Source: a virus
Lineage: Duplodnaviria; Caudoviricetes
Length of the DNA: 57,013 nt
Direction: 5' to 3' (one strand)
IMG/VR virus record: IMGVR_UViG_3300033148_007689
Span: 1-57,013 of that record
Shown: positions 25,947-57,013 of the stretch, piece after piece
How positions within the stretch are numbered: position 1 is the stretch's first letter
How the letters are laid out: each line of letters opens with the position of its first letter
The notes under the pieces: model-generated
What the model saw: only the letters and a program-made list of their open reading frames with translations
What the model was told of the DNA's origin: nothing
The model's database searches: none
Position numbers and translations under genes: made by a program

Positions 25947-26156
25947 TTAATACAGTCCATCATCTTCTGTCACCTCAATTTTTAGATCTCCTTTACCAAA
26001 CTTATTGTATATCTTCACTCTTCTTCTTTTGAAACCTTTTACTCCAATCAACATGCTAATTAGTCTTTCACCACCCACAGGATCCCCGCTAGTATGCGCA
26101 CCATACCAAGTTTTCAACCACTTCTCTTTCTTAGATGCTGGTATTGTTATAATCAT
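25947..26156 (-). CDS. Hypothetical protein
   Basis: ORF coupled to the nrdJ stop (TAATG). Confidence 0.55.
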   Translation of the reverse strand: MIITIPASKKEKWLKTWYGAHTSGDPVGGERLISMLIGVKGFKRRRVKIYNKFGKGDLKIEVTEDDGLY

Positions 26157-29100
26157 TATATGTCACATACCCCTGATCTGCAAGACACATCTTTTTCAGA
26201 TAAAGAATCAGAGACTCCTTTTTCATCCTTAATGTATTTCTCTATCTCTTTTCTAGACATCCTATAATATACTTGCTTCTCTCTGCTCTCATCTCTATAG
26301 ACTGTTACCCCTTTAAGATCGTAAATGTACTCTAATAATATTTTACTTAAATCTTCTGCTGTTGAAGATTTAGGCAACAAGATAGTCTTTGATACACTCC
26401 CATCCAAATATTTAGCTATAGTGGATTGCATTTCTAAATGTTCTTCTGGTTTTAAATCATAACTATCTACAAACCATTCACTATCATAATGTTCTTTACA
26501 CAGTGGGTGTATATAAATTCTATCACTAACACGATCTGATCTTAAGTACCCTTTAAAGGGTAAGGGCTCTATACCACCAACAACATCAGCCAATAATGAA
26601 GTTGTATTATGAGTGATAAAACCATTAGCTATATAAGTATGTGAATCTTCATATATTTCGAGATCATTTACATGCATATTATCATACACATTCGTTTCTG
26701 ATACTACATCAAAACATAAATCATTTTTAACAAACCAATTCATACTATCTATCCTCGAAATATAATTTGCTTTAGTAGTACAGATTACATTATTATTAGA
26801 TGAAAACCTATCCTTTGTATATGAAAGATGCTGACTATTAAAATGCATTAATTCATCTGGAGTTAGTATGATCAATTCCCTATCTCCATTTTTTGGTAAA
26901 GACACGTCAATATTATACAATAATTTCAACAATTTTACCGAGTTATATCTGTTTACAGAAATTCTATAGGCTTTACCTCTGGCAAACACTTCTCTACCTT
27001 CAATAATAGAATTGTTTTCCTTTGTTTCTTTTAAATGAGATACAAATCCAAGACCCAACAATATAGTTTGTATTTGATTGGCCATTGTTTCTGAAATAGT
27101 AGTAAATCCTATACGGTTATCTTCCTTTCTTATATGACCATTGCCTCTGTGGTAACCGCTTATAAAAGAAATTATATTGTTTAATGAACCGCTTAATATT
27201 ATATCAGGAATAAAAGCATTTATAGCTCCATATTTTATACATCCATGTTTTTGAAACCAATCATATAATTGTTTATTGCCAATCTCTAATCTCACAGATT
27301 TACTATCTAATCTATCACGTTTATATACTTTGATTTTAAACACATCCCCAAAAGACTTATATATCAAATTTGATATATATTCTGCTTCATTATTATTAGA
27401 AGTCTCAAAATATAATCTATGACTTCTTCCATTTACAGTCCACCAACCATCTGCCATATAATATCCTAATAATTCAGCTTTATGATCAGATAACCATGTT
27501 TGTCTCTTGTCGTACAGAAACCCTTTCTTCAACACAACTAAATCTCCTTTTTCTATATCACCCAAAGATTTCCAACTATACCCGTTCCCATCAGTTAATA
27601 CCCTCACTTTATGATCAAACGTTCCTTGAAGCTTATAACCATGTTTAGTTTTTATACTTTTAGTTTTAGCGATCCCCTGATCATAATATGCTTTTATATG
27701 TACATCCTTAAAATCTGATTTAGTAGAATTTCTTCCTCTACCAACTCTTAAATTAATCTTTTTATAATCTTCAATTCTTTTAGTACCAATCTCTGATGAT
27801 ATAAGAGTACCATCTACCAAACAACCCGTCGGAGCTGCTGTAGTCAACGTTACGTTACGAATTGAGTTTTCTTTTATGAGCATCCTTATTTTAGCAGGTA
27901 ATTTTCTAACAAAAGAGGCACTAGCATAATCTATTCTATTATATTTTGGGAATGCCCCTTTTTCTTTTGCTAGTTCCACAGAGGCTATGTAAGCTTCATC
28001 TCTGATAAATCTATATAATTTTTCTACTTCCGCAATGGCTCGTTCTGAACCATATCTTATCTCTTTCATAAAAAGATAGTCTGCAAGACCCATTGTACCG
28101 AGCCCGATCCTGCGAGCATTTTTAACAACTATTTCTTGTTGTGGGATTGGGTAGTAAGCTAGATCAATTACGTTGTCCATAAATCTTACAGCTATTTTAA
28201 TAGTCCTAGATAGTTTTTTCCAGTCAGTGTTTTTATTTATAATAAAATGTGGTAACACAAGAGCGCCCAGATTACAACATCCAAACTCTTCGAGCGGCAG
28301 TTCACCGCACTGTAAGTTGTTGATATAATTGAACTTTTTCTTTCCGTTCTCTGTCTTGCTCTCACTAACCATAACATAAAAATTATGAAATTCGTCCACT
28401 GTCCCATTGTATACATCTTCATATCCATCTTCTTCTATAGATACTATATTATAATTCATCATTCGATGCTTATATCCTTTTTCCATTGCGTACTTAACTT
28501 GACCAAGAAAAGCAGCCTTAGAAGTACCTGCACATCTAGTAGAACAATATGACTGTTCTCTCCTATGCCACTTGACAGAGAAAATTCTTCCACAATTCTC
28601 ACATTGCTTATTTACCCAAATACTACCGTTCTCAAAAAAAACATCAAGATCAGTTGTATCTTTAAGAACAAGAAACTTCCTATATGCTTTTAACTCGTAC
28701 CCTTTCATATATACTCCCGCTTCTTTAGCGGCAGCTTTAAGCATTGAACTAGCACTTTTATATTTTCCAAAAGCACAATTAGACCAAGGTATACTATTTG
28801 TTTTGCAGTACTTCTGCCACTCATCCTTGGTTACTTTCCTTCCTATATTTCTCATTAAATCAATGGCTATTTGGAATATTTCTTCTGGTGTAAGTCCCGT
28901 CCACCTACCGTTATTTTTACCCGACCAATTTTGTTTAATAAGCCAGTTTTTCTCAGGAAACCTATTCACTGGGTTATTCCTACCAAGCATATCTTGTGCA
29001 TGTAATTTATCATGATCTTTTTTTAACATAGGTTCAAGATTTACCCATTCATTATTAAGACCATTAAAATCATTATGATGCACTATTTCACCAGGTTTCA

Positions 29101-30304
29101 ACTTACGACCCAAATTAAACTCTGCAATAATTCTGTGTTCTGCTTTATTTGTAGATTTACCAACATTCCACCACACATAATCTTGTGATCTACTATTCGC
29201 CCTAAGAAATACATCTTTAAATGATGCATGAAATTTAACTGCGTGATGAAGCCTATCATTTTCTTTTAATTCGTCAGCCCGCTTATAAGTACCATCAAGC
29301 ATAAGGATCCCATGATTTTCAGTACATCTAATTATAGACCCATCATTAAGGGTTATCTTCAAAATTCTTTCTTTATACCCAGTGATTCTAGGGTTTCTCA
29401 TTAAACGTACAGTAACATTATTATTACTATCACTACAAAATACTGGCACATCTTTACCTTCATCAGCCAATTGTTTTATAGGAACATTGCCCCTACCGTC
29501 TGCTACAGCCACTAAAGTATTTCCCGTCACGCAAGGATTGACCCCCCGAATTGGACTGAAATAATATGAATTATTCTTTCTCAAATTGTCCCAATTTATC
29601 AAACCTGGCTCACTATGCTCCAACATATTATTAAGAATCATATCCCACAATTCTCTTGCTCTTACTGTTTCATATACTTTACCAGCAAATTTAAGATCCC
29701 ACTCATTGTCCTCTTCTACCGCTTTTAAAAAACCTGAATCTACAATTACTGAAATATTAAATTGTGTTAATTTATTGTGCTTTATTTTAGCATTAATAAA
29801 TTCTCTGATTTCAGGATGAGAGATATGGCACAAGGCAATCCCCGCACTTCTTCTCGCCCCACCAGTTTCTATTCTTTTCCCAGCATGATTAAATATTTCC
29901 ATAAAGGAAACTAGTCCTGAACTATTACCGCCTTTTGTAATAAGAGGAGCACCTTTAGGTCTCAAAGCAGAAAAATCTATCCCATTCCCACCACCATATG
30001 AAGAAATAATTAAATAATTCTTGAGTGTTTCTCCTATAGATTCAATACTATCTTCCAGAGGTAGAAAATTACAATTACTTGTAGATGGTCTCAGTTTACC
30101 AAGATTCCTTAGAATTCTTCCTGCAGGTATAAAATCCAAAGGTTCTATAATAGAGTAAAACTCCCCATAATACTTCTCTGCTTTGTCTCCTTCATTCTTA
30201 GCATTCTCTCTACATATTCTTTCTGCTAGGTGATCCCATTTAGTTTCATTGTCCCAGAAATATCTGCTCTCAGCTATCTTCTGGGCATTAGCGCTTAATT
30301 CCAT
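26156..30304 (-). CDS. nrdJ: Class II (B12-dependent) ribonucleotide reductase with two inteins
   Basis: PAGRIL, SNC, NPCGE (split by intein), CNLG, RRIGLG, APTGT (split by intein), SVSKT, KGVTVYR; likely start MELS at 30304. Confidence 0.92.
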   Translation of the reverse strand: MELSANAQKIAESRYFWDNETKWDHLAERICRENAKNEGDKAEKYYGEFYSIIEPLDFIPAGRILRNLGKLRPSTSNCNFLPLEDSIESIGETLKNYLIISSYGGGNGIDFSALRPKGAPLITKGGNSSGLVSFMEIFNHAGKRIETGGARRSAGIALCHISHPEIREFINAKIKHNKLTQFNISVIVDSGFLKAVEEDNEWDLKFAGKVYETVRARELWDMILNNMLEHSEPGLINWDNLRKNNSYYFSPIRGVNPCVTGNTLVAVADGRGNVPIKQLADEGKDVPVFCSDSNNNVTVRLMRNPRITGYKERILKITLNDGSIIRCTENHGILMLDGTYKRADELKENDRLHHAVKFHASFKDVFLRANSRSQDYVWWNVGKSTNKAEHRIIAEFNLGRKLKPGEIVHHNDFNGLNNEWVNLEPMLKKDHDKLHAQDMLGRNNPVNRFPEKNWLIKQNWSGKNNGRWTGLTPEEIFQIAIDLMRNIGRKVTKDEWQKYCKTNSIPWSNCAFGKYKSASSMLKAAAKEAGVYMKGYELKAYRKFLVLKDTTDLDVFFENGSIWVNKQCENCGRIFSVKWHRREQSYCSTRCAGTSKAAFLGQVKYAMEKGYKHRMMNYNIVSIEEDGYEDVYNGTVDEFHNFYVMVSESKTENGKKKFNYINNLQCGELPLEEFGCCNLGALVLPHFIINKNTDWKKLSRTIKIAVRFMDNVIDLAYYPIPQQEIVVKNARRIGLGTMGLADYLFMKEIRYGSERAIAEVEKLYRFIRDEAYIASVELAKEKGAFPKYNRIDYASASFVRKLPAKIRMLIKENSIRNVTLTTAAPTGCLVDGTLISSEIGTKRIEDYKKINLRVGRGRNSTKSDFKDVHIKAYYDQGIAKTKSIKTKHGYKLQGTFDHKVRVLTDGNGYSWKSLGDIEKGDLVVLKKGFLYDKRQTWLSDHKAELLGYYMADGWWTVNGRSHRLYFETSNNNEAEYISNLIYKSFGDVFKIKVYKRDRLDSKSVRLEIGNKQLYDWFQKHGCIKYGAINAFIPDIILSGSLNNIISFISGYHRGNGHIRKEDNRIGFTTISETMANQIQTILLGLGFVSHLKETKENNSIIEGREVFARGKAYRISVNRYNSVKLLKLLYNIDVSLPKNGDRELIILTPDELMHFNSQHLSYTKDRFSSNNNVICTTKANYISRIDSMNWFVKNDLCFDVVSETNVYDNMHVNDLEIYEDSHTYIANGFITHNTTSLLADVVGGIEPLPFKGYLRSDRVSDRIYIHPLCKEHYDSEWFVDSYDLKPEEHLEMQSTIAKYLDGSVSKTILLPKSSTAEDLSKILLEYIYDLKGVTVYRDESREKQVYYRMSRKEIEKYIKDEKGVSDSLSEKDVSCRSGVCDI
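26606..27823 (-). mobile_element. Intein 2 in NrdJ (406 aa, LAGLIDADG-type)
   Basis: APTG|CLVDGT...LLGYYMADG..FISGYHRGNG...NGFITHN|TTS. Confidence 0.9.
28310..29533 (-). mobile_element. Intein 1 in NrdJ (408 aa, HNH endonuclease, C-terminal Gln)
   Basis: NP|CVTGNT...VYNGTVDEFHNF...NNLQ|CGE; HRIIAE..VHHNDFNGLNN HNH. Confidence 0.9.
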
Positions 30305-30325
30305 CCTTCTCCTCCTCCTTCTCAT

Positions 30326-31247: not shown

Positions 31248-31820
31248 TTACCCTCTCAGCATATCAAAATAATCTTTTATCTCGTCCCAATCCTTTACTC
31301 TCATAATATTATCAACATTAGAAAGGTCCAACTGATTCCAGCTACGATCTAACAAAAGGATTTTAATATCCTGTCTTGCTAAGTCAATTGCAATTTTGAG
31401 CCTATCTTCAACAAATACCTTAATATTCTTTCTGATAATAGGCTGTATTTTATAGATCCCTCGCACAAAATGAGCCTCCCAAGGAAGCTCTGGTAAATGC
31501 AAGCGTAGCCACTTTATAGTATTCTCCTTATCCTGACGTGCACTAACAAATATAATAGGGTCATTAGTTATCTTATGATAATAGTTTAGAAATTCAATGG
31601 CATTGGAGTATGGCAATAGTCTATCCACAGATGCAATTGTTAAGCTGACACACCTATCAACCTGTTCCTTTGATAGGGAAGTGCACTCTTCAATAGAGTA
31701 CTTGATGATGTCATTTACCTCAAGTTTGTAACCATATTCCTTTTCAATATTGTCCAAAAGAATTGGTATCATATTCACTATACAACCATCAAGATCGAAT
31801 CCCCATTTTATCATAATCAC
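31248..31820 (-). CDS. HAD-family 5'(3')-deoxyribonucleotidase-like protein
   Basis: FDLDG, VSAR, FVEDR, WNQ motifs. Confidence 0.8.
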   Translation of the reverse strand: MIMIKWGFDLDGCIVNMIPILLDNIEKEYGYKLEVNDIIKYSIEECTSLSKEQVDRCVSLTIASVDRLLPYSNAIEFLNYYHKITNDPIIFVSARQDKENTIKWLRLHLPELPWEAHFVRGIYKIQPIIRKNIKVFVEDRLKIAIDLARQDIKILLLDRSWNQLDLSNVDNIMRVKDWDEIKDYFDMLRG

Positions 31821-33896: not shown

Positions 33897-34551
33897 TTAG
33901 TATGTTCCATCAGCAATTTTTTTAAGTGAATCTCTAATGTCTTGTCCGTCAACATCGTGACCAACATTTACCCATCCATTTTCAAATTTCTGAGATGAGC
34001 GAGCAAAGAGTTCTATTCTCGGCAAATCACCACACAATTTGACTATTTTGTCCCTAACAATAGTAGGTTTCTTTGAATGCTCTGTTCTAGGATGAATTAA
34101 CACACTTGAAATTGTATTATCTATTACAATAGGTTTCCCTTTCACTCCAATTAAACACACTTCACAATTGGATTTAGTATAATAACCTATCCCAAAAAAT
34201 GGTCGACCATTGATTTTATTTGTTTTAATCCAACTGAATCCAAGTGTTTTATATTGAAATCCCCACGCTTTTATTACATCTAATGCTTCCTGTAAATTTG
34301 GAAATGTAGCCCATAAAAATAGCATACAATTTCTATCAGCAATTGTGCCAACAGGGATACTCTTTATATCTTCTATATCCATAACATCATAATGAACCAC
34401 CGCTCCCCCACAGAATCGTGTATGTTTATTTCTTCTGTCGTTATATCTCCACGGTGAGTTATGGGTCTGCGTAAATGATTTGATATTTCTTATTACGCAG
34501 ACCTTTGGCATCACCCCCTTCAGAACCTGAGGTAATCCTTAATTGTTCCAT
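33897..34551 (-). pseudogene. MT-A70-family methyltransferase broken by a 7-nt insertion in DPPW
   Basis: ATG 34551 ..KKYQIIYADP-[TAACTCA]-PWRY..LFLWAT..HSKKP..IELFAR. Confidence 0.75.
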
Positions 34552-37674: not shown

Positions 37675-37975
37675 GTGAATGCTCCCCCGGCTATAAGCTG
37701 TGGGCTTCTAAGGGTAAGGACTGACGTCCTTTTCCTAAGCTCTGCATTCCCAGAACTAAAATATTTTTGGCAGCATTAACATCACGATTTAAATGGAGAT
37801 TACAAATAGGGCAATGGTATACCCTTTCAGACAATTCAAGTTTATGCCTATTTCCACATTGAGAACATATCTGGCTGGTATAGGCAGGGTTGACCTTAAC
37901 CGTCCGACCCCCGGCCCATGCTGCCTTGAAGTCGAGAAGGTTAAGAAATTGTCTCCATGCTGCATCTCCAATTAA
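37675..37975 (-). pseudogene. tnpB: IS605-family tnpB 3' remnant with right end
   Basis: DAAWRQFLNLLDFKAA / frameshift / KVNPAYTSQICSQCG..CPIC..NRDVNAAKNIL; end hairpin CCCACAGCTTATAGCCGGGG followed by TCAC. Confidence 0.85.
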
Positions 37976-41719: not shown

Positions 41720-42895
41720 TTATCTCCCGTTTAACCTAATTAATCTCTTAGAAGCTATCCTACAATATTCTATTTCTTTCTCTATTAAGAGACATTTTCG
41801 TTTCTGTTTCTTGCAAGCTAATCCTGTCGTACCACTACCACTAAACGGATCCAAGACTATCCCACCCGTAGGAGTCTTGGTCAGCTTAACAAGATATTCC
41901 ATAAGAGATAAAGGTTTGACTGCAGGATGTTTATTATATTTCCCACGTTCAGATTTTGAGGCCTTAGCGCAGTAGTAAAAGCGAGAGGCTCCTGTTCGAC
42001 TATCTCTATAGGCAGGATTAGTACCTTGAGATACTAAACCAAACATCCCCTTAATTTCCCTATTAGTTACATTATCTCCTGTTTTACACTTCCCACTCTG
42101 CTCATCCAGCATCTCTGCTGCTTCTTCATCAAGGATAAGGTTTGCAGGAAAACGACCTTGAGGCGGAGTTATTTTATTATCACCATATATCTTAGCCTCT
42201 GTATATTGATTAGACTTATAAACCCTTTTAGCTGAACCAGAAGGTTGGGCTTCACCGTTAAGGGGTATCCTCCCTCCATTAATATTTAATCCTCCTACGC
42301 CCCACTTTAAGGCATTATTGGCAAAAGTACCATCAAGAGGCTTCATAGCTACTACGATAGGTTCCCATGCTGGTTTCATGGCAGTACCATAGCCATTCCA
42401 GGCTTGGGCTTCAGGAGTAGTTACATTTTTTATAGTAAAGTTTTTACCAACCTTCCCAGATTTATATAAATCCTCTTTAACATTAGGTCTCGACACCGGA
42501 CTAACAATTTTAGTATCCTCTAACTCTATACCTTGTAGTTTTTGTATACTTTTTGCTATATCTAACGACTTAGGAAATCCACTCCCATAAAGCCACATCA
42601 GACAATCCCTTATTTCCCATCCTGCATCCTCTATAGCACAGGTCAAACGATGAAAGGTACGAGTTCCACCAAAGGCAAGGAGAAAAGCTCCTGGTTTAGC
42701 TACTTGTAAACACTCAACCCATGTTTCTTTACTTGGCAATGTCTTATCCCAGTCTTTACCCATGAACTTTAATGCATAGGGAGGGTCTGTTATTATACTG
42801 TCAATGGAATTAGGCTCCATTTGTCGCATAATATTTAGGTTATTACCGTTATATAATGTACAGTAATCATCTTGGTAAAAAACGTCTAACTCCAT
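41720..42895 (-). CDS. DNA amino-methyltransferase (beta class, DPPY)
   Basis: ITDPPY, HPAVKP, LDPFSGSGTT. Confidence 0.9.
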   Translation of the reverse strand: MELDVFYQDDYCTLYNGNNLNIMRQMEPNSIDSIITDPPYALKFMGKDWDKTLPSKETWVECLQVAKPGAFLLAFGGTRTFHRLTCAIEDAGWEIRDCLMWLYGSGFPKSLDIAKSIQKLQGIELEDTKIVSPVSRPNVKEDLYKSGKVGKNFTIKNVTTPEAQAWNGYGTAMKPAWEPIVVAMKPLDGTFANNALKWGVGGLNINGGRIPLNGEAQPSGSAKRVYKSNQYTEAKIYGDNKITPPQGRFPANLILDEEAAEMLDEQSGKCKTGDNVTNREIKGMFGLVSQGTNPAYRDSRTGASRFYYCAKASKSERGKYNKHPAVKPLSLMEYLVKLTKTPTGGIVLDPFSGSGTTGLACKKQKRKCLLIEKEIEYCRIASKRLIRLNGR

Positions 42896-43751: not shown

Positions 43752-44531
43752 CTAAGAAAACAACCTTTGCTGAGCCAGACGTTTTTTGGCTATTTCACAG
43801 TAGGGTTCTGATAATTCTATACCTATCCATCTTCTGCCTAATTTCTCACAGGCAGCTGCTGTCGTACCCGAACCTAGAAACGGATCAAGAATTAAATCAT
43901 CTTGCCAAGTATAAAGTTTTGTCAATCTGTAAGGTAATTCCTCTGGGAAAGGAGCAGGATGGATTCTGCTGCGTTCTGGGGCAAAATACCAGCAATTTGT
44001 GGTAAATTTCATAAATTCTTCTATAGAAATATCATTTTGTCCTTTCTTATCTATTCTCTTATGATTTTTCTTATCCATTATAATAATAAATTCTGAGGCA
44101 TCTCTTAAATAGGGACAACTTGGGCTTCGCCAACTCCCCCAAGCAGTAGACCTCCCAGGGGGTTGAAAGTTAGGGGCTTTTACCCAACTAATCCATTCTC
44201 TGTCTATAAAACCAATTTCTCTCATTATCAAAACATAATCTAAGGTTAAATATGCCATTCTCGATTTAGAACTTTGAAGAATAGAGCTTAGTAAATTTAT
44301 GCTCATACGTCCCCCATTTATCAAAACTCTATAGCACTCAATTAAAACTTCTTTCATAAAAGAAAGATATTCTTTATAATTCCTTCTATCATTAGTTCCA
44401 TAATTCATTCCAACATTATAAGGGGGAGAAGTAATGATACAATCTATACTTTCATCAGGAATATCCTTCATTACTTCCAGACAATCTCCACAGAAAAGCT
44501 TTCCCAACCTGGTCTCAAAGTAAGGCTTCAT
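43752..44531 (-). CDS. DNA N4-cytosine-type methyltransferase (SPPY)
   Basis: [22 protein letters not shown]. Confidence 0.9.
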
Positions 44532-47462: not shown

Positions 47463-48044
47463 TTAAGCAAAAGTTTTATTCTCTGCAAGCAATTTTAAGC
47501 TTTCTCGTATATCCCTCCCATCAATGTCATATCCTATTGCATCCCAGCCCTCTCGCATTTGCCTTGCAAATATATCAACTTTATTTTCAGCTAAGGATTC
47601 TACCATCTCATAAAATTTATCTGGTTTTTGGGAATGCTTAATATTTGGTGCTGAAAAGGCCAAAGGGATTAGTGGTCGCCTCGGCCATAAATCAGGTTTT
47701 CTCTTATACCCAACCAATATAAATTCAACATTCCACCTGAAACCAAATAATGGCATCCCAGCAGATTTACCATATGTTTTTTCCCATACACCTGTAGCAA
47801 GGTAACTAAAGCCCCACGCTTCTGCTATCTCTTTTGCATCAAAAAGAAACTTTTGTGTAGTCCATAGGAATAGCCAACAATTATTATCAGCAATATTATT
47901 TATGGGTAAAGACTTAATCTCTTGTATGCTCATAGTCTCATAATCCATTGTTACCTGTTTTGACCTTGCCTTACGTGTAAGTTTCTTTACCTGCCAGGGT
48001 GGATCAACAACAATTAGCCCATATTTTTTTAGTGGTTCACTCAT
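47463..48044 (-). CDS. MT-A70-family DNA methyltransferase
   Basis: IVVDPPW, LFLWTT, HSQKP, DIFAR. Confidence 0.88.
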   Translation of the reverse strand: MSEPLKKYGLIVVDPPWQVKKLTRKARSKQVTMDYETMSIQEIKSLPINNIADNNCWLFLWTTQKFLFDAKEIAEAWGFSYLATGVWEKTYGKSAGMPLFGFRWNVEFILVGYKRKPDLWPRRPLIPLAFSAPNIKHSQKPDKFYEMVESLAENKVDIFARQMREGWDAIGYDIDGRDIRESLKLLAENKTFA

Positions 48045-48912: not shown

Positions 48913-49128
48913 TTATTTCCTGCTCGTCCATCTCTTATTTACCCCCTATGTAAATCTCTCCTTTAAATTTCTGTTAATATCGCTTATTACTGTTACTACA
49001 CTTGTCCAATCCCTTTTTTCTTCATCGTAATAAATCTTAATCTTCCAAGAATATTCGTTTTTTGCATTTCTATTTATTTCTATACTACTTTGCTTTTCTG
49101 TCTTAATTTCTTCTGCCATAACGTTCTC

Positions 49129-50049
49129 CTAATTAAACATCAGATATGATCTATATAATCCAACTATCAAACTACTCTTCTCTGGGTAACCAGTATTAGA
49201 TAAATAGTCGTATGCCCTAGATAATCTTTCTCCCTCTTCCTTGTTCTTCAAGTAATCTGATATTAATCTAGATGATATTAAATTTAACATACCCACTCTC
49301 AGAGATTCTGGGCTATTGTTTTTCAAGGCTCTGCTTAACACATCTTTAATACGGGTCCAATCCCCTCCTCCAATAATTAATTTCATGATGTCCAATGCAT
49401 CACCATTCTCTTCAAGAGAGGTCATATCTAACAGATATTTAGCCTCTACCTCATCCTCTACACTTTTTATTTTATCTAACCCTATCAGAAGTCTTCGGGG
49501 AATCCCCTCACTCTTAGAGATTAGTAATGCTTTCTTCCATTTCTGAAGAAGAATATTCTCTCTTTTACAAATTCCATCAAGTAGTTTACTACTTTCCAAA
49601 GAGGAGAGAGGTTGTACTTTAAACCTCATAAACCTTTCAACCAGTGTCCCAATTAGTTTGGCTGTAGTAGTAGTACATGCTATAACCAACACATTATCAG
49701 GTAAATTCTCTAATGGTTTTAATAATACCTGTTGTGTCTTCGGGGATAACTCATGAATTTCATCTAGTATTAAAATCTTCTCATTACCAAACAAAGATGA
49801 TTTATACAGCTTGTCTAATCTGTCCCGCATATCCTCCACTTTTGAATAGTACACACAATTTAGATCCGTGATATTTTCAGGTGAAGCACCAAATTTGTCT
49901 GCTAAGATATAGGCTAGAGTTGTTTTCCCCAAACCAGCATCTCCTTCAAACATGATTGGCTTATTCAATTCCATATTCTGAAGAGAGTTCTTGAGATAAG
50001 AATTACCTACAAATTCAGCAAATGTTTTTGGTCGATATTTAAGATGCAT
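49129..50049 (-). CDS. DnaX/clamp-loader-like AAA+ ATPase
   Basis: LKYRPKTF..GDAGLGKTT..ILDEIH..LLKPLE. Confidence 0.88.
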   Translation of the reverse strand: MHLKYRPKTFAEFVGNSYLKNSLQNMELNKPIMFEGDAGLGKTTLAYILADKFGASPENITDLNCVYYSKVEDMRDRLDKLYKSSLFGNEKILILDEIHELSPKTQQVLLKPLENLPDNVLVIACTTTTAKLIGTLVERFMRFKVQPLSSLESSKLLDGICKRENILLQKWKKALLISKSEGIPRRLLIGLDKIKSVEDEVEAKYLLDMTSLEENGDALDIMKLIIGGGDWTRIKDVLSRALKNNSPESLRVGMLNLISSRLISDYLKNKEEGERLSRAYDYLSNTGYPEKSSLIVGLYRSYLMFN

Positions 50050-50265
50050 AAAATATCCTTGTTAAAAAGAATAGGAGTGTGTCAATTAACCTAGCGGGGT
50101 CTTCCACAGCCACACACAGCGGTATTGGTATCACCCCTATTCAGAACTTTTTCTTTTAGTTTCTCTACATACCCAAGTCTCTTATCCATTCTTTCTTTTA
50201 CTTTCTTGAGAAACTCCTCATCAGTTTCTTCCTCTTCATCCTCCATTTCTGTTTCCCCTCAATAA

Positions 50266-51171
50266 TTAGGCTCCACTCTTCTCTGCCGCTTTCTTTGCTA
50301 CTATACGTGCACATGCCTTGAAATCCTTACAATTCTTACACTCTTCATCATTTTCATCAAAACATGCTTCATTACCAAAACAAGCTTCGTGCTCTTCATC
50401 AGCAGAAGGAGCTGTATCTGCGGTCTGCTCCACTTTCTCTACTTTCTCTTCCTCCTTCGCTGTATCCCACAGGGTTTGAGTATCTTCCTCTTTATATTCT
50501 AATATAGCAGTCTCACCGTTCACCTCTGCTTCTGTAACTCCCCAATGATACCACATCGGTTTCATAATCTTTTTGTTTCCTTTACCATCATCCCATGCAG
50601 GTAGTATTCTAAAGGTCAAAGTCTCATCCATTTTTAGAGTAGCTACGTTGAGGATGTCTTCTGTTTTAAGAAGCTCCAACATATTAGAAAGATTATACCT
50701 ACTATTAAGAGTTTCATCAGGAACATCATAGTCTGCTGGATTAAGAGCAGGATTAGTAGGATACTCATTAAATCCTCCGTTCCCTCTTTTCTTGGTAATC
50801 TTTATCTCCCGACCCTTTCCCTTCTTAGGGTGAGTAATGTTGCCCCACTCCTGTAGGTTTATTCCATCAAGAATAGCATTAGCAGCTTTGATACCAAGTT
50901 CAATTATAACTACTTTTGATGGGTTGCTGGGAAGTACCGCATTAACATATATTGTTGGCTTTGCGCTAAGGCGTTTTGCCATATCAATTTTGTCTTGCTC
51001 CCCACTATCAAATAGAGACTGAACCTTTTCACATACAAAGCATCTTCCCCCAATGTCTTTGTTGACCTTAGGGCAGAGAGTCCTTTGTCGCCTTCCCCTA
51101 ATCTCCGATTGAATCTCGGACTGGGCACTTATATCTAATTCCCAAGGGTCTTTATTCATTTGTTTTGCCAT
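50266..51171 (-). CDS. Probable ssDNA-binding protein (gp32-like)
   Basis: CP..CFVC, GREIKITK, FRILP motifs; acidic tail; replication-module context. Confidence 0.55.
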   Translation of the reverse strand: MAKQMNKDPWELDISAQSEIQSEIRGRRQRTLCPKVNKDIGGRCFVCEKVQSLFDSGEQDKIDMAKRLSAKPTIYVNAVLPSNPSKVVIIELGIKAANAILDGINLQEWGNITHPKKGKGREIKITKKRGNGGFNEYPTNPALNPADYDVPDETLNSRYNLSNMLELLKTEDILNVATLKMDETLTFRILPAWDDGKGNKKIMKPMWYHWGVTEAEVNGETAILEYKEEDTQTLWDTAKEEEKVEKVEQTADTAPSADEEHEACFGNEACFDENDEECKNCKDFKACARIVAKKAAEKSGA

Positions 51172-51229
51172 TTCGTTTCTCCTTTCTGTTTTTGGTTTTC
51201 AGTTTTCAATCTGTTTTTGGTTACGTTTA

Positions 51230-51257
51230 GTTATAATCATTAATTTTTGTTTGTCAA
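51230..51257 (-). promoter_or_regulatory. Early promoter
   Basis: TTGACA-AACAAAAATTAATGAT-TATAAC. Confidence 0.75.
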
Positions 51258-51320
51258 GTCTTTTTTTGATTTTAATTCGATTTGTTTTCAATTTCTTTAT
51301 CATAATAAACAGTATATTTT

Positions 51321-51842
51321 TCATTCCTGCAAAATTTTAGAAGCTCTGCCAAGCTTCGTTTCAAAATCTTCCTCTCCAAATTTTATAGCTTCACCTCCCT
51401 TCCCCTGATAGATTCGAGGCTCTGGTAACATTATATCAGAGCTTAGTTGAACTAGCTCCCGCAGTCTAAATCCTCTCCCTCTCCATGCCTCTACAAAACC
51501 TTCTAAAATAGCTGCTGTTTCTTTAGCTTCGGCGAGTCTCTTCTTGACTTTCTGGTATCTCTTATCCAGAGGTACTTTACTTTTCCGTAAAGAATCCAAA
51601 GCATAAGCAGAAAGAGGCTTCTTATTTCTTTCTGCTTCCTTATCAAATTCATCTAAAATTTCTGCTACTACAATCTCCAAATTTAGAGTTAGTCTATCTA
51701 CCTCTCGCACACTTTCAGCAAGCCATCTAAAATATTTCGCTGTCTTTTTTGGATGTGAAAGGAGCTCCCGTTCTAGGGAGAACAGGCTTGCATTGTTTAT
51801 TTTTAACTCTTCTTCAAATTCATCAAGATTTATTGTTTCCAT
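51321..51842 (-). CDS. UvsY-like recombination mediator (tentative)
   Basis: Coiled-coil with VEAWRGRGFRL; next to the SSB-like gene. Confidence 0.5.
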   Translation of the reverse strand: METINLDEFEEELKINNASLFSLERELLSHPKKTAKYFRWLAESVREVDRLTLNLEIVVAEILDEFDKEAERNKKPLSAYALDSLRKSKVPLDKRYQKVKKRLAEAKETAAILEGFVEAWRGRGFRLRELVQLSSDIMLPEPRIYQGKGGEAIKFGEEDFETKLGRASKILQE

Positions 51843-51852
51843 AACATCTCCT

Positions 51853-51880
51853 AGTATAACCATTAATTCTCATTTGTCAA
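51853..51880 (-). promoter_or_regulatory. Early promoter
   Basis: TTGACA-AATGAGAATTAATGGT-TATACT. Confidence 0.75.
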
Positions 51881-51935
51881 GAGGTAAAACCAAAAATATT
51901 CAATTTAATGTTTCACATCCAGTGTGGCTTCCCTT

Positions 51936-52112
51936 TCACTTCGGTAATAAGTCAAAAAAAGGCAAGTGGTTTGTCTCCACCACTCTTAAATCAAACATAT
52001 CCAACAGCTTTACAGCTGCTGGAGCCTTTTTAGCATCTGTAAAAAGATGGTAAAACAGCGGCAGCTCGAACTTTTCTCGTTCCAACCAAACTTTATATAT
52101 ATCTTTTTCCAT
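51936..52112 (-). CDS. 58-aa hypothetical protein following the TIGR-like array
   Basis: SD GAGGA, MEKDIYKVWLE..LLPK*. Confidence 0.5.
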   Translation of the reverse strand: MEKDIYKVWLEREKFELPLFYHLFTDAKKAPAAVKLLDMFDLRVVETNHLPFFDLLPK

Positions 52113-52134
52113 TTTTGCTTTCCTCTGTTTTCAA

Positions 52135-52314
52135 ACGCTTCCTGTCAATGGGTTTCTTATTTAAGATGGCTCGCTTACGTGCTGTGGGTTTCTTGAGACG
52201 ACTGGCTCGCTTTAAGCTTGTGGGTTCCTTCCTGATAATGGCTCACTTGTATTTTTGGGTTTCTTTACGAACTTGGCTCACTTGTCCCGCATGGGTTTCT
52301 TCGCATCTTTGGCC
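52135..52314 (-). repeat. TIGR-like dual-spacer array, five 36-nt units
   Basis: AGCCA-N9-AGAAACCCA-N9-AG(C/T)G period; in-frame TGA stops argue against coding. Confidence 0.8.
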
Positions 52315-52321
52315 TATTTCT

Positions 52322-52349
52322 ATTATAATCATTAATTTTCATTTGTCAA
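52322..52349 (-). promoter_or_regulatory. Early promoter driving the array
   Basis: TTGACA-AATGAAAATTAATGAT-TATAAT. Confidence 0.85.
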
Positions 52350-53028
52350 GGGGCATTTGTGTTTTTTTAAGATCTTTTCCTAAATAGAGTCCATCAGTAG
52401 TAGTATTATCAGGTCTATTATATCTTTCATCGGTGATAGTGTTTTCGGCAGGAGATGTCTCTACATATGGGTCTTTTTCACCCTCTTTAAACAGTGTCTC
52501 ACCCCACAGTCCCTTAAGTTTTATTGTCCACATTTAAGTCTCCTTTCCTTTTCATTGGAGCTATTTTTCTTTCAACCATTTTTAGTTTTGATCTCTATCT
52601 TCTGAATTGTTTCTATTAGATTGCTTAGTAAATTTCTAATGTCTAACAAAGTCTCAAGTTTTGCATACTCTAAATACCAAGCCCCCTCAGGTTTATTGCT
52701 AAGGCTTTGGCATTCTCCCAGCATTTTCAATATCTCATTCTTTGTTCTCATTCTTTAATACCTCCTTTGCCTACTCTCTCTGTCATATGCTCCCAACAGT
52801 CTTCTTTATCAGCTGCTATAAACATAGATTCAGAAGGGCTTGTGTAAATAATTTCCCCTTCTTCATCTTCCCAAATCGTGCAACCATATTCATCTTCCCC
52901 AATAGGGACTTTTTTTACTTGGCCTTTATACACGGTTTAAATTACCTCCTTGTGATTTTGTACCAGCTTTATCAACTGTATCGCATAGCCGAGTCACAAC
53001 CCCTAATAGTTACCTTTCCCATAGTGTT

Positions 53029-54064
53029 TCATGGAACCGGCTGTAAGGCATGAGGACTATAAACTCCCATGTGTGATAAATTAATAGCTGCGTTTAGATC
53101 CGCATCTATTTTATTACCACAAGCACATTCATAAACCTTCCCTTTACGGTTTGATTTACAAATGACTCCGCAATTACAGCATTTCTGGCTTGTATAAGCT
53201 GGGTTGACTTTTGTGAACAAGACACCGGCTTCCTCAGTCATTTGGAGGAGTTTCTGTAAGACCCTTACATAACTCCAACGCTGTAATTTGTTTGTGAATT
53301 TCTTTCGTATTTTCCCTTTACTTTTATGTTTTACATTTTTTAAGTTCTCAACAACCAGTTCACGAATATTAGATAAATCTATTTTATTTAAACTTTGATT
53401 TATAAGATTATTTCTTTCAACCAAAGCCCGTTTAAAGGCTTTACTCCCCTGTTTTTTCCTACTAATCTTTTCATAGATTTGTTCCATGCCATCATCATAA
53501 GATTTATTTTCTGATGTTTTGATAAGCTCTCTGTAACCACAGTCAAGCCCAACAACCCTTCCTTTTTGTTTCAATTCGGGCGTTTTTTTCTCAAAAAGAA
53601 CTTCAATAAACCATTTATTATATTTCTTTATCAAACGTATTGACTTGTTTTGTTTCCAGTCTTTGAATTTATTGAAGTGTTTATGTGTTTTTACTGGAAG
53701 CTTGATCTGAATTCGCTTGCCAATAGAAGACAAACGGATCCATAAATCAAAATATTTCCCATTTTTAAAATCTGTAAACCTTGAGTCAAGAGTAAAAGAG
53801 AATTTTTTAAAAATTGGCCTAGTTTTCTTTCTTCTCTTACGTTGTGATTTAACTATTTCAAGTGCTTGCTTGGCATTGCTGCATTCTTGCTGATAACCAA
53901 GTATCAACTTTGCAGTTAACAAACTTAGAAGAGAAGTCTTTCTGCTCCCAAATTAGATCAATAAAAAGATTAACAACTCTTTGCATTTCAAATGCAATGG
54001 AATCTAATTGGATTAATTTACCTTCATTTGCTTCATTTATAGATAAAATTGATCTTCTAATCAT
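53029..54064 (-). pseudogene. tnpB: Frameshifted TnpB
   Basis: MIRRS..ARMQQC / frameshift near 53870 / AKQALEIVKS..GLDCG..VVENL..YTSQKC..DADLNAAINL. Confidence 0.8.
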
Positions 54065-54131
54065 TTTACAACTTCCTAATTTGCTTGGAGTATTCACTTA
54101 CTTTCACGGTTATATTTTAATAATCTTTTAA

Positions 54132-54160
54132 ATTACTATGAAATATATTCTATTTGTCAA
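54132..54160 (-). promoter_or_regulatory. Promoter upstream of tnpB
   Basis: TTGACAAAT plus AT-rich -10-like region. Confidence 0.5.
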
Positions 54161-55007
54161 GTAATTTTTGTTTATACATCTTTCTCTCCCCCCTTGTCTG
54201 TCAGACCACTCAGCGACTGCTCTCCATGTGCATGCAGTGACAGTATTATTTTCTGATGAGCCTCTCCCTCTTTAATAGCCGCTTCTCTGGTGCTGTGCCA
54301 CACCCCTCTCATGCCATTATAAAGGCTATAAAACCGATATTCGTGCACATGATAACCTTCCCTTCTTACGATACGATATATTTTCTCCATATTCTTTTTT
54401 CTCCTTATTTTCTGTTTAATATATAAAGAATCTCAACAACATGCTGCAACGTATCACACCCCCATCTGGGCATGTACCATTGCCCATCCACTATTTGCGC
54501 TCCTTCCCCAACAGCTTCTGGCTCAACGGGGTCATATCCAATGTCCAATATTGCTTTAACTACTTCGGACGGGTTTTTCATTATTTACGCCTCTCTGTAT
54601 CTTCTTTCCCCAGCACCTCTGGATATTCTATAACATTCATTCGGTGTAAGAGATGTTGATAGTTATTCTCTATCTCCTCTATTCGATGGAGTAGGGTCTG
54701 CTGTATACGACATGTAAACAGCAAGTTAAGTATAACAGTGAGTGCTAATATGATTATGGATAAGGCTAATGTTTTCATGCTTTCTCCTCTCTATATTTAA
54801 CCCAAGTCATCTCCACAATTCCTACAATGCATATTTGGTTCTATGCCACCAGGGTTGTACCACCACACCCCTGCAGGATGATTTCTCACTCTGCATATTG
54901 CAGTCCTAATTCTGCCAAGGTCTGAATTGCTATTCCTCGGAGCGAAAAGATATTTCCACCATTCTATAGAGAGCCATTTTGTAAAAGGCCACATCGTTTT
55001 TCTCTCC

Positions 55008-55418
55008 TTATGAATTTTCTTCTTCCCATTGTTTTATTGCTTTTTCAAATGAACTCTGCCAGTAAAGTGTCGTACAGCATTCTATAACCCAAAACTTCTG
55101 ATCTGTATCAGGGGGAGTCCACTCCAAAAGCTGGGGTTCTTTACCACATTTTTTACACTTGGTTAATTTCACCTTTTTTATCGAGAAAACACAGTATCCT
55201 TCTTGGATACCGAATAGAGGGCCGTGCTGGATATAGATAATTTCATAGGGGCCTAGTTCTTTTCCTGTTTCAATTCCATTGGCCATCTCTGTAAAAGAGA
55301 TTATATCATGCTTTTGATAATTTCTGTCATTTTTCCGACATTCAAAGGTCTTAATCCCTTCCTCTATCGCTTGATAATAGAGGGCTTCAATCTTGAGATG
55401 ATGATGTTGTCTTATCAT
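55008..55418 (-). CDS. DUF3850/ASCH-like protein with Zn finger
   Basis: HHLKI..GIKTFECRKNDRNY..GYCVFS; CKKC. Confidence 0.7.
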   Translation of the reverse strand: MIRQHHHLKIEALYYQAIEEGIKTFECRKNDRNYQKHDIISFTEMANGIETGKELGPYEIIYIQHGPLFGIQEGYCVFSIKKVKLTKCKKCGKEPQLLEWTPPDTDQKFWVIECCTTLYWQSSFEKAIKQWEEENS

Positions 55419-55802
55419 TTATCTTCTCCTGAAACCTCCAATTCCCAAAATTTTCAATGCTTCATCTATTTCCTCTTGAGTAAAGAAGTTCAACAGCATT
55501 TTCTTTATTTCATATGCTGTTTTATCCTCGGTTTTCTTACTTCCCCAGATGCTGAAATGCATTAAATCTATACACAGCCTAACAGGGTATTTAATTTCTT
55601 GTTCATTTTCTCTTTCACCTACCAGATAAGTAATTATCTCAACCCCGAGTTCATTCCGCTTTTTCATTGCTTCTAAGTGGTGAGGTGAACCATCTTCTTT
55701 CATTCCACTATAATAGCCTGCATCATAGGCGGCGTCTATTAGAGACTTTACCAAACCTTCCGCTTTTTCTTTATCCATTTTTATTAACTCCTTTCTACCC
55801 AT
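55419..55802 (-). CDS. Hypothetical protein, C-terminal paralog of 45644-46054
   Basis: Shared ~50-aa C-terminal domain. Confidence 0.65.
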   Translation of the reverse strand: MGRKELIKMDKEKAEGLVKSLIDAAYDAGYYSGMKEDGSPHHLEAMKKRNELGVEIITYLVGERENEQEIKYPVRLCIDLMHFSIWGSKKTEDKTAYEIKKMLLNFFTQEEIDEALKILGIGGFRRR

Positions 55803-57013
55803 TCAGGAATATAACCTTCTGCCATTCTTTTAGCACAGTCATAGTAATATGGCTCTGGTGGTTCTGTATCATCTTTTTGATTCCATTCTTGAGAAGTCGG
55901 GTCGTTCATCCAATCTGCTCCATATGCCTCTGCACAGACAGCCTGACCAACATCCCATGTCTTGCCACACCGATTGTCATATATCTCTGCTCCAATATTG
56001 TCAATAATGGCATCTAAAAACTTCATTATTTCATTCCATTGATTGTGCCTTAAAGTGTATCTCATTCGCTTAGCTCCATTCACCCCTTAAATAAGCACCT
56101 CGCATATATTCTGGCACTGGCACAAAGACCGATGTGGGCAAATAATTTTCAACCCAATCTCCACTCGGTAATAAAGCTTGGTTCAGTTGAAACCGTGTAT
56201 ATATCCATCCCCCAGGTACTCGTCTAACTTCTGTACCATCTTCAAGAGTAAGCATTTCGTGTAGTTTTAAATCGTATACTACTTTCATGAAATTTCCCCT
56301 CCTTTCAGTCATTATACTCAAACCCTCCTCAACAATGCCTTCTCCAGTCGAGTAATAAAGTCTAACTGATAAGAATATTCCTCAATTAGATATGCTGCTC
56401 CTATTAGGTCGGCATATGTCCATTGAGGCAGGTGTCGAGGGTTCTCTTCAGTCAATTCCTCAATTCTTTTCTTAAATGAGTTTATTTTTTGTTGCTTATG
56501 TCCTGACTCTGTAGATCGACCCTTGAGTAGTCTTACATCTACATTGACTCGACTCTGACAAGACGAATCTCTTGCTTGTTGCCGAAGGCGATTAAGTTCA
56601 TGTCTTAATGCCAAAAATTCTTCTGCGGTTACATCCATCGTAAAATGTTTATCAGTCATAATTTCTCCCATATTTTCAATTAGCTAAGCAGTTACAGAGG
56701 GGACACACATGCTATTGATAGCCGTTTTTAATGTGGTGTCCGTCATCCACTGTCCCTAATTCAGCATGCTCTCTGCAACCGTCTTAGGCATTTTTCCCTT
56801 TTTTCTATACCCTCAACTTCCACTTCCTTGCTAAATGCCTCCCCAAAACACCGTCTATCAAAACATGACCATCAAAATCGAATATCAGTTCAGATTTTTG
56901 TTCAAGTGAGTCCGCCAGCCTTTTTTTAATTTCTTTGGTGATTGTAATTAACTCTAACGTATCTGATTCTGTTTCTTTCTTTTGAGGACAAAACCAATAT
57001 TCAAGGTCTGGGA

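What the first reader, a model, noticed from the sequence alone, without database searches (positions are those of the whole stretch)
52135..52349. TIGR-like tandem dual-spacer guide array with its own promoter but no tas gene in the window
Seen: five 36-nt units starting right after a consensus promoter, AGCCA-[A]-AGAAACCCA-[B]-AG(C/T)G. Spacer pairs: aagatgcga/tgcgggaca, agttcgtaa/aaaataca (8 nt), ttatcagga/caagcttaa, gtcgtctca/cagcacgta, tcttaaata/ttgacagga. Every spacer ends in A. Established: a 36-nt period with two ~9-nt spacers flanked by CCA motifs is the TIGR-Tas architecture. No Nop-domain ORF is recognisable here; only a 58-aa ORF follows. The array may act in trans with a distant Tas, be orphaned, or use another effector.
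Basis: partly seen in the sequence, partly recalled or inferred. Interest (0 to 1): 0.85.

Follow-up and report, generated by a model that had tools for sequence, protein, structure and literature searches.

The report
Stand-alone TIGR guide array in phage
A phage fragment carries a genuine five-unit TIGR guide-RNA array with its own promoter but no gene for the Tas protein that must use it, so the guides must work with a protein encoded elsewhere.

Summary
On the minus strand, a perfect sigma-70 promoter (52349..52322) is followed by GGCCA and five units of 36 nt (one of 35), ending in AGCG at 52136. The grammar is edge AG(C/T)GAGCCA, 9-nt spacer, loop AGAAACCCA, 9-nt spacer.

The repeats are those of Tas-linked TIGR arrays. 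The edge repeat is identical to that of the characterised Salicola phage CGphi29 TasH array. The same pattern occurs in at least 120 viral stretches, and 62 of the 78 records checked encode a Tas protein.

Five searches find no Tas in the window. The window is a whole IMG/VR record that is only about 51% complete.

Arrays usually lie next to tas (median 137 nt). Complete phage genomes nevertheless hold satellite arrays 11 to about 27 kb from tas. One complete phage genome has three mini-arrays and no tas.

In a vent metagenome, related strains keep the flanks but carry other array content.

Best reading (0.5): a satellite array served in trans by a tas in the unsequenced half. Main rival (0.33): a tas-null phage with solo guides that borrow or divert a foreign Tas. 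No targets were found.

The parts
52322..52349 (-). Sigma-70-type promoter: -35 TTGACA (52349..52344), 16-nt spacer, -10 TATAAT (52327..52322). The expected start is about 7 nt downstream, at the half-edge GGCCA.
   Evidence: 12 of 12 consensus match. A 30-nt near-identical copy lies at 51880..51851; there are only these 2 in the window and 0 in 100 shuffles.
52310..52314 (-). 5' truncated edge repeat GGCCA, which starts the array.
   Evidence: Sequence. [quoted passage not shown]
52274..52309 (-). Unit 1: spacer A 52309..52301, loop AGAAACCCA 52300..52292, spacer B 52291..52283, edge AGTGAGCCA 52282..52274.
52239..52273 (-). Unit 2 (35 nt): spacer A 52273..52265, loop AGAAACCCA 52264..52256, spacer B 52255..52248 (8 nt), edge AGTGAGCCA 52247..52239.
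52203..52238 (-). Unit 3: spacer A 52238..52230, loop AGGAACCCA 52229..52221, spacer B 52220..52212, edge AGCGAGCCA 52211..52203.
52167..52202 (-). Unit 4: spacer A 52202..52194, loop AGAAACCCA 52193..52185, spacer B 52184..52176, edge AGCGAGCCA 52175..52167.
52136..52166 (-). Unit 5: spacer A 52166..52158, loop AGAAACCCA 52157..52149, spacer B 52148..52140, 3' truncated edge AGCG 52139..52136. This is the unit kept in a 2-unit variant of a related strain.
51936..52112 (-). 58-aa ORF with a ribosome-binding site, 23 nt after the array. With no terminator between them, it is probably on the same transcript. It belongs to no family and is not found next to other TIGR arrays.
   Evidence: No Pfam or PHROG match. 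Only two relatives in 5.8 billion proteins (93% and 87% identity, frame kept). No homologue in the loci held at that point (L001-L181).
51955..51985 (-). Terminator-like hairpin (51985..51964) with a T-run, inside the 3' end of the 58-aa ORF. It is a possible end of the array transcript, about 150 nt after the last unit.
   Evidence: pattern scan only
51851..51880 (-). Second copy of the same extended promoter, in front of the UvsY-like gene (51863..51321). The array and ORF58 therefore sit as a cassette between two promoter copies.
   Evidence: UvsY-like by phrog_231, E 4.5e-9. A distant relative has this promoter directly before its uvsY-like gene (L211).

Best explanation
This is a genuine dual-repeat TIGR guide array of the class used by the Salicola phage CGphi29 TasH system.

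It is transcribed from its own strong promoter, and transcription starts at the first half-edge. The transcript would be cut within the edge repeats into five RNAs of about 36 nt. Each RNA carries two short spacers that pair with opposite strands of one 16-18 bp DNA site and guide a dimeric Tas (Nop-domain) protein to it.

No tas gene lies within 52 kb on one side or 4.7 kb on the other. The array must therefore be served in trans. The most likely source is a tas gene on the minus strand in the unsequenced half of the same phage genome, which would make this a satellite array.

Shown: the array grammar, the identity of its repeats with Tas-linked arrays, the promoter match, the absence of tas from the window, the existence of satellite arrays in complete genomes, and the strain-to-strain change of array content.

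Inferred: transcription, processing, loading onto Tas, the location of tas, and the outcome at the target. The outcome would be binding or repression if the partner is TasA-like, as most partners of this repeat class are, or cutting if it is TasH-like.
For: Grammar.

Repeats:
- The edge AGCGAGCCA is identical to the SpTIGR edge, and the SpTIGR loop AGACAACCA matches the window's at 7 of 9 positions.
- In the 120 viral stretches, the commonest repeats among 1,199 units are AGCGAGCCA (538) and AGAAACCCA (251).
- The edge gap C/T...G keeps a C-G or U-G pair. This is the rule TIGRFinder uses to call edge repeats and it matches the structural account.

Link to Tas:
- 86 of 120 stretches have at least 3 chained half-units.
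- 59 of those 86 have a Tas hit in the stretch.
- The profile of 50 of these proteins matches TasH chains at 1.8e-66 and 9mty at 1.8e-44.
- 62 of 78 whole records have Tas.

Satellite arrays in complete genomes:
- G006: an array 10.9 kb from tas.
- G023: about 25-28 kb from tas.
- G021: 5.6 kb from tas.
- Arrays lie on the strand of tas in 11 of 11 records.

Record state: 51% complete. No capsid, portal or terminase gene was met among the ORFs annotated.

Intactness and turnover: box C is intact in 10 of 10 repeats, box D in 10 of 10, and the promoter is a perfect match. Related strains keep both flanks but carry other array content.
Against: - Arrays normally lie next to tas. Across 125 arrays the median distance is 137 nt, the 90th percentile 944 nt and the largest seen within stretches 4,477 nt. 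A gap of more than 4.7 kb is therefore unusual.
- Most arrays lack a promoter of their own. Only 9 of 169 chain starts have a -10-like box just upstream, against 2.2% at random places.
- In the one tas-less complete genome (G002), I read in the printed sequence a -10-like box just upstream of the start of each of its three arrays. The window's array resembles those.
- No close relative of this phage was found to show where tas lies.
- No target was found.
- Unit 2 has an 8-nt spacer B.
- There are no RNA data.
Confidence: 0.5

Rival explanations
1. Solo guide array in a tas-null phage. The phage has no tas at all. Its tigRNAs load onto the Tas protein of a co-resident element (another phage, a prophage or the host). 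They either turn that protein against a competitor or draw it away from this phage.
For: - G002 is a complete 41,579-bp genome with direct terminal repeats. It carries three mini-arrays with the same repeats. In the printed sequence I read a -10-like box, a 5' half-edge, a 3' half-edge and a hairpin with a T-run at each; I ran no promoter or terminator scan on them.
- G002 has no Tas by the profile search or by an unfiltered HMM search of all six frames (best E = 2).
- 2 of 19 records that are at least 90% complete lack Tas: G002, and G009, whose array lies 1.4 kb from the contig end.
- The repeats are shared across very distant hosts: 37 stretches in bacterial and archaeal MAGs. A foreign Tas of this clade could plausibly load these guides.
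- The window's array has its own promoter, as I read the G002 arrays to have.
- A precedent exists in another system. Solo vrRNAs in VIPR-null phages and satellites borrow Vipr in trans (bioRxiv 10.64898/2026.10.15.759431; abstract, introduction and passages read).
Against: - The record is about half a genome, so absence of tas is not shown.
- 17 of 19 near-complete records with such arrays do encode Tas.
- No target was found in tas genes or arrays of the loci held. The best was one site with 1 mismatch of 16, in two copies of one phage family, which is within chance.
- Cross-loading of tigRNAs onto a foreign Tas has not been tested here.
Confidence: 0.33
2. Relic. The array was left behind after loss or separation of tas and no longer does anything.
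For: There is no tas in 57 kb. One unit is 35 nt. No target was found. The array is short (5 units). One variant in a related strain has CTA in place of CCA in a loop.
Against: All 20 box motifs are intact. The promoter matches consensus 12 of 12. The C/T change in the edge keeps the pair. Array content changes between strains while the flanks stay 90-97% identical, which is not the pattern of slow decay in place.
Confidence: 0.1
3. The array serves another effector, such as the TnpB-like protein about 700 nt upstream.
For: A TnpB-like gene (53922..53029; Cas12f1-like_TNB 2.8e-17, phrog_506 2.2e-29) lies on the same strand upstream.
Against: - One contig of a related strain skips 52873 to 54174, so it lacks that element. 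Other contigs of the same run keep the array's flanks.
- The gene's frame is broken in the window.
- TnpB guides are single RNAs at the 3' end of the element, not box C/D dual-spacer units (recalled knowledge).
- The repeats match those of Tas-bound arrays.
Confidence: 0.03
4. It is not a guide array: a chance repeat, or the plus-strand 90-aa ORF (52115..52387) encodes a repeat protein.
For: An ORF runs through the array on the plus strand, and 36 nt is 12 codons.
Against: - Such ORFs run through arrays in 39 other loci as a by-product of the repeats.
- The variable parts are the 9-nt blocks, not codon third positions.
- The promoter lies on the other strand.
- 9 chained half-units here against 2 isolated ones elsewhere.
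Confidence: 0.02

Closest known systems
SpTIGR-TasH of Salicola phage CGphi29 (NC_020844), the characterised dual-repeat TIGR system with 8-nt effective spacers
   Same: The edge repeat AGCGAGCCA is identical. The loop AGACAACCA compares with AGAAACCCA here (7 of 9). Both have an 18-nt half-period, box D is AG rather than UG, and most spacers end in A. Both are phage-borne.
   Different: In CGphi29 the array lies directly downstream of tasH and ends in a clear terminator. Here there is no tas in the record, the array has its own promoter, only 5 units, and a small ORF follows it.
Dual-repeat TIGR-TasA loci of phages (Faure et al. 2025, PMC12045711; TIGRFinder set, bioRxiv 10.64898/2026.09.09.750476)
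   Same: The unit grammar, the truncated edges at both ends and a unit number within the usual 5-15. 48 of 50 Tas proteins linked to this repeat class have no HNH domain, so they are TasA-like.
   Different: Those catalogues were built around tas loci, so arrays far from tas or without tas are outside their design. 'Orphan' occurs 0 times in either paper.
Solo (orphan) vrRNAs of VIPR-null phages and satellites (bioRxiv 10.64898/2026.10.15.759431)
   Same: Guide RNAs carried by a mobile element that lacks the effector gene and must borrow the protein in trans. They are used in conflicts between mobile elements.
   Different: It is a different system. The paper gives a GGY(NN) grammar for the guides and a Vipr protein. 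The words TIGR and Nop occur 0 times in its text. For the window, absence of the effector from the whole genome is not shown.
Isolated or mini CRISPR arrays without cas genes
   Same: Arrays that depend on effector genes elsewhere. One example was seen only as a search listing and abstract (PMC13142298); the rest is recalled.
   Different: CRISPR repeats are 25-36 nt with single spacers of similar size (PMC12045711, section 4). Here two 9-nt repeats alternate with 9-nt spacers.

Membership tests
TIGR dual-repeat array | Two distinct alternating repeats of 8-12 nt, separated by spacers of about 9 nt, giving a 36-nt unit repeated in tandem (most often 5-15 times) | tested here: met
   5 units: 4 of 36 nt and 1 of 35 nt. 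Repeats are 9 nt and spacers 9 nt (one of 8). Definition from PMC12045711, section 4.
TIGR dual-repeat array | Box C (CCA) ends both repeats and box D starts both repeats, with the two repeats covarying | tested here: met
   CCA ends 10 of 10 repeats and the first half-edge. AG starts 10 of 10 repeats and the last half-edge. Box D is AG, not the UG of TasR arrays. AG is also what the SpTIGR array has, as do the units counted, which were collected with a pattern that requires AG.
TIGR dual-repeat array | The 4-nt gap of the edge repeat has complementary end bases (a short stem), while the loop gap does not | tested here: met
   Edge gaps are CGAG or TGAG (C-G or U-G). Loop gaps are AAAC in 4 units and GAAC in one. 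The rule is from the TIGRFinder methods and the TasR structure text.
TIGR dual-repeat array | Starts with a 5' truncated edge and ends with a 3' truncated edge followed by a rho-independent terminator | tested here: inconclusive
   GGCCA at the start and AGCG at the end are present. The only terminator-like hairpin lies about 150 nt downstream, inside the 58-aa ORF.
TIGR dual-repeat array | A tas gene (Nop-domain protein) next to the array | tested here: not met
   No match in the 57-kb record to PF01798, phrog_4285, PF02371 or the 50-protein Tas profile A1. An unfiltered HMM search of all frames gave a best E of 0.044, on the UvsY-like ORF. The profile works on positive controls. The record is only 51% complete.
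TIGR dual-repeat array | Processed into 36-nt RNAs bound by Tas | not testable with these tools
   No listed run that holds the stretch is on record as RNA.
SpTIGR (TasH-type) repeat class | The repeat pair of the CGphi29 array, with 8 variable nt per spacer plus a fixed purine | tested here: met
   The edge is identical and the loop matches at 7 of 9 positions. 10 of 10 spacers end in A here. In the family, position 9 is A in 42% and G in 39% of units. 16 variable nt are stated for SpTIGR.
Solo guide array of an effector-null phage | No effector gene anywhere in the complete genome of the element | not testable with these tools
   The window is the whole record and is 51% complete. No fuller relative was found. 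The criterion is met by another phage, G002.
TnpB/omega-RNA element | The guide RNA is encoded at the 3' end of the tnpB element and moves with it | tested here: not met
   The array lies about 700 nt beyond the gene. One contig of a related strain lacks the element, while other contigs of the same run keep the array's flanks. The defining feature itself is recalled, not read here.
CRISPR array | One repeat of 25-36 nt with spacers of similar size | tested here: not met
   Two alternating 9-nt repeats with 9-nt spacers. Definition as given in PMC12045711, section 4.

The most novel reading that the evidence does not exclude
This phage encodes no Tas at all. The five-unit cassette is a solo tigRNA array that relies on the near-universal repeat scaffold of this Tas clade. 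It loads its guides onto the Tas protein of a co-infecting phage, a prophage or the host, either to aim that protein at a rival or to divert it. This would be a TIGR counterpart of the solo vrRNAs of VIPR-null phages. The fast turnover of units between strains would then record an arms race. One complete tas-less phage genome with three such mini-arrays (G002) shows that the configuration exists.
Probability: 0.33. Interest if true: 0.8.

Novelty: new member of a known kind. Interest (0 to 1): 0.55.

Why it matters
Published TIGR catalogues were built outward from tas genes, so arrays far from tas or without tas are invisible to them.

This window, together with the whole-record checks made here, shows three things. 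The same repeat scaffold occurs as promoter-driven satellite arrays many kilobases from tas. At least one complete phage genome carries such arrays without tas. Array content turns over between close strains while the flanks stay fixed.

If solo arrays really borrow a foreign Tas, TIGR would join CRISPR and VIPR as a system whose guides are traded and turned against rivals between mobile elements. Strain comparisons like this one could also bear on the open question of how TIGR arrays gain and lose units.

Tried and rejected
- **Tas in the window.** PF01798, phrog_4285, PF02371, profile A1 and an unfiltered six-frame HMM search all found nothing. The weak HMM hit (E 0.044) is the UvsY-like protein (phrog_231); its PDB matches are noise.
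- **Rfam.** No family matched 51000-54500 at E up to 1.
- **Close relatives of the phage.** None were found through the UvsY-like protein or the clamp-loader protein in viral contigs, by DNA in named phages, by the promoter in viral contigs, or by a wobble-tolerant ORF58 pattern in metagenome contigs.
- **The looser promoter pattern.** It found 31 metagenome stretches. They are only distant relatives and have no arrays and no Tas.
- **Host inference.** Relatives of the intact TnpB have at most 47% identity and are spread over many phyla. The window has no tRNA genes.
- **Targets in the window.** None beyond shuffled controls, as 18-mers in both orders or as 16 specified bases with gaps of 0-2.
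- **Targets in viral contigs.** Exact 18-mers for units 1 and 4 gave 0 and 0. With two central N they gave 6 and 20 stretches, with no shared contig and varied central bases, which is chance level.
- **Targets among held loci.** Equal numbers turned up for the true and the wrong spacer order (13 against 13). A fuller scan gave 13 hits against 7.2 in shuffles, and its best hit was within chance. G002's own guides have no self-targets.
- **Expression.** No RNA holder was listed.
- **Neighbouring small ORFs.** They have no homologues in the loci held at that point (L001-L181).
- **Own-promoter test across arrays.** It is noisy, because many chain starts are breaks inside longer arrays.

Full report
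**What is there**

The feature lies on the minus strand. A perfect sigma-70 promoter has TTGACA at 52349..52344, a 16-nt spacer and TATAAT at 52327..52322. It matches consensus 12 of 12.

Seven bases after the promoter come GGCCA and five tandem units that end in AGCG at 52136. Each unit reads spacer A (9 nt), loop repeat AGAAACCCA (once AGGAACCCA), spacer B (9 nt, once 8), and edge repeat AGCGAGCCA or AGTGAGCCA.

Nine of these are chained in phase here.

A 58-aa ORF with a ribosome-binding site starts 23 nt after the array. A terminator-like hairpin lies about 150 nt downstream, inside the end of that ORF.

**Is it a TIGR array?**

The published definition has four parts (PMC12045711, section 4 and structure text):
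- two alternating 8-12-nt repeats with about 9-nt spacers;
- a 36-nt unit;
- both repeats ending in box C (CCA) and starting with box D;
- a truncated edge at each end.

TIGRFinder adds that the 4-nt gap of the edge repeat has complementary end bases. The array meets all of these. The C/T difference between its edge copies keeps a C-G or U-G pair.

Box D here is AG rather than the UG of TasR arrays. That is also true of the experimentally studied SpTIGR array of Salicola phage CGphi29. I read that array directly: its edge repeat AGCGAGCCA is identical to the window's, its loop is AGACAACCA, and most of its spacers end in A. The Science paper counts 16 variable nt for SpTIGR, so the fixed A probably belongs to the scaffold.

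**Link to Tas by co-occurrence**

- 86 of the 120 have at least three chained half-units.
- The largest protein cluster in these stretches has 62 proteins in 60 loci, with a median length of 288 aa.
- A profile of 50 of them (A1) matches solved TasH chains at 1.8e-66 and chain 9mty at 1.8e-44. I take 9mty to be the TasR of the Science paper; its entry title does not say so.
- 2 of the 50 have an HNH domain and 48 do not, so this repeat class mostly goes with TasA-like proteins.
- The same repeats occur in 37 stretches of bacterial and archaeal MAGs, and 24 of these have Tas in the stretch.

**No tas in the window**

PF01798, phrog_4285, PF02371, profile A1 and an unfiltered six-frame HMM search all fail. 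A1 finds Tas in all five positive-control records.

The neighbours on the same strand are:
- a UvsY-like gene (phrog_231), a gp32-like gene (PF08804) and a clamp-loader ATPase;
- further on, UvsX, SbcCD, methyltransferases and ribonucleotide reductase.

Tail genes fill the left half of the window. No capsid, portal or terminase gene was met among the ORFs annotated. The window is the entire IMG/VR record, which is linear and 51% complete by CheckV.

**How unusual is an array without a neighbouring tas?**

Within the stretches I measured 125 arrays in 59 loci. They lie a median of 137 nt from tas, with a 90th percentile of 944 nt and a maximum of 4,477 nt.

Whole-record searches covered 78 records. 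Four loci were left out because of a size limit.
- 62 of the 78 encode Tas.
- Of the 19 records that are at least 90% complete, 17 encode Tas.

Complete genomes do hold satellite arrays:

| Record | Distance of array from tas |
|---|---|
| G006 | 10.9 kb |
| G023 | about 25-28 kb |
| G021 | 5.6 kb |

Arrays share the strand of tas in 11 of 11 records. The satellite arrays look like the window's. In G021 I read the array ending in AGCG and followed by a ribosome-binding site and a start codon.

Two near-complete records lack Tas.
- G009 (93% complete): its array lies 1.4 kb from the contig end.
- G002: a 41,579-bp genome with direct terminal repeats. I fetched it whole. It has three mini-arrays. 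In the printed sequence I read at each a -10-like box, half-edges at both ends and a hairpin with a T-run. It has no Tas-like frame; the best E is 2.

**Strain variation**

Only DNA contigs of one hydrothermal-vent study hold part of this stretch. I laid them on 49000-57013.
- One 1,666-nt contig matches 51208-52092 and 52310-52773 at about 90-97% identity. The 217 nt between these blocks, which is the array body, are replaced by 192 other letters.
- Another contig joins 52175 to 52310 through 27 letters. Those letters form exactly one unit with other spacers, so the result is a two-unit array that keeps the window's last unit.
- The flanks are therefore fixed while the array content changes. 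The shared unit is the one farthest from the promoter.
- The 192 letters were not shown, so I infer rather than see that they are array units.
- One contig of the same run skips 52873 to 54174. The TnpB-like element is therefore an independent insertion and not part of this feature.

**Origin of the cassette**

The promoter has a 30-nt near-identical copy (27 of 30) in front of the UvsY-like gene. These are the only two copies in the window.

A looser form of the promoter occurs in 31 metagenome stretches, in front of many kinds of genes. In one of them it lies directly before a uvsY-like gene with 40% identity to the window's. None of the 31 has arrays or Tas.

The promoter, array and ORF58 therefore look like a lineage-specific cassette placed upstream of the older promoter-uvsY unit. 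ORF58 has only two relatives among 5.8 billion proteins and none near other arrays.

**Targets**

TasR leaves 8-nt 3' overhangs. I deduce from this that one strand of a target reads spacer A followed by the reverse complement of spacer B. Nothing above chance was found in the window, in G002, in the held loci or in viral contigs.

**Verdict**

The identification as a TIGR array is secure (about 0.9).

Where its Tas comes from is open. Near-complete genomes with such arrays usually encode Tas (17 of 19). At least three of them have arrays more than 5 kb from tas, and one or two have no Tas. Allowing that only half of this genome is seen, I put the three readings as follows:
- 0.5 for a tas gene in the unsequenced part of this phage;
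- 0.33 for a tas-null phage with solo guides;
- 0.1 for a relic.

I found no mention of orphan or stand-alone TIGR arrays. 'Orphan' occurs 0 times in the two primary TIGR papers that I searched, and a library search returned no TIGR paper with such terms. The nearest precedent is solo vrRNAs in VIPR-null phages.

Noticed in passing
window 53029-54097 (minus strand): A TnpB-like gene whose frame is broken near 53860-53920 (a 79-aa ORF plus a 297-aa ORF). One contig of a related strain skips 52873 to 54174 and so lacks the element. Contigs of that run also carry 5 extra letters at 53868-53873, where the frame breaks.
   Followed up: partly
window 24556-25653 (minus strand): A second, intact TnpB-like gene (365 aa, phrog_506, E 3.7e-116). 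Its nearest relatives in prokaryote genomes have at most 47% identity and are spread over many phyla.
   Followed up: partly
window 52320-52349 and 51851-51880; loci L182-L212: An extended promoter with a conserved 16-nt spacer occurs in 31 metagenome stretches. It lies in front of varied genes, what looks to me like a tRNA gene (L185, L195; not scanned) and a tandem repeat (L189). This is a promoter family of a broad phage group and may include a regulator site.
   Followed up: partly
G002 (loci L121-L123): about 16571-16640 (+), 37755-37890 (+), 31677-31770 (-): A complete 41.6-kb phage genome with terminal repeats carries three TIGR mini-arrays and no Tas homologue. At each array I read a -10-like box and a hairpin with a T-run in the printed sequence. 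Its guides have no self-targets.
   Followed up: yes
window 51852-51856 (seen in run X1): A related strain has 128 extra letters exactly at the -10 box of the second promoter copy. The tool did not show the letters, so a second small array cannot be excluded.
   Followed up: no
window 26156-30325 (minus strand): The ribonucleotide reductase large subunit (1,389 aa) is interrupted by a stretch that matches HNH endonuclease families (residues about 387-649). It looks like an intein or a homing-endonuclease insertion.
   Followed up: no
window 33897-34514, 41720-42895, 43752-44531, 47463-48044 (minus strand): Four DNA methyltransferase-like genes in two paralogous pairs (phrog_359 twice, phrog_67 twice).
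   Followed up: no
loci L213-L249: The same edge and loop repeats occur in MAGs from Saccharibacteria, Dehalococcoidia, Planctomycetota, Altiarchaeales, Bathyarchaeota and others. The scaffold is thus nearly universal for this Tas clade across both prokaryote domains.
   Followed up: partly
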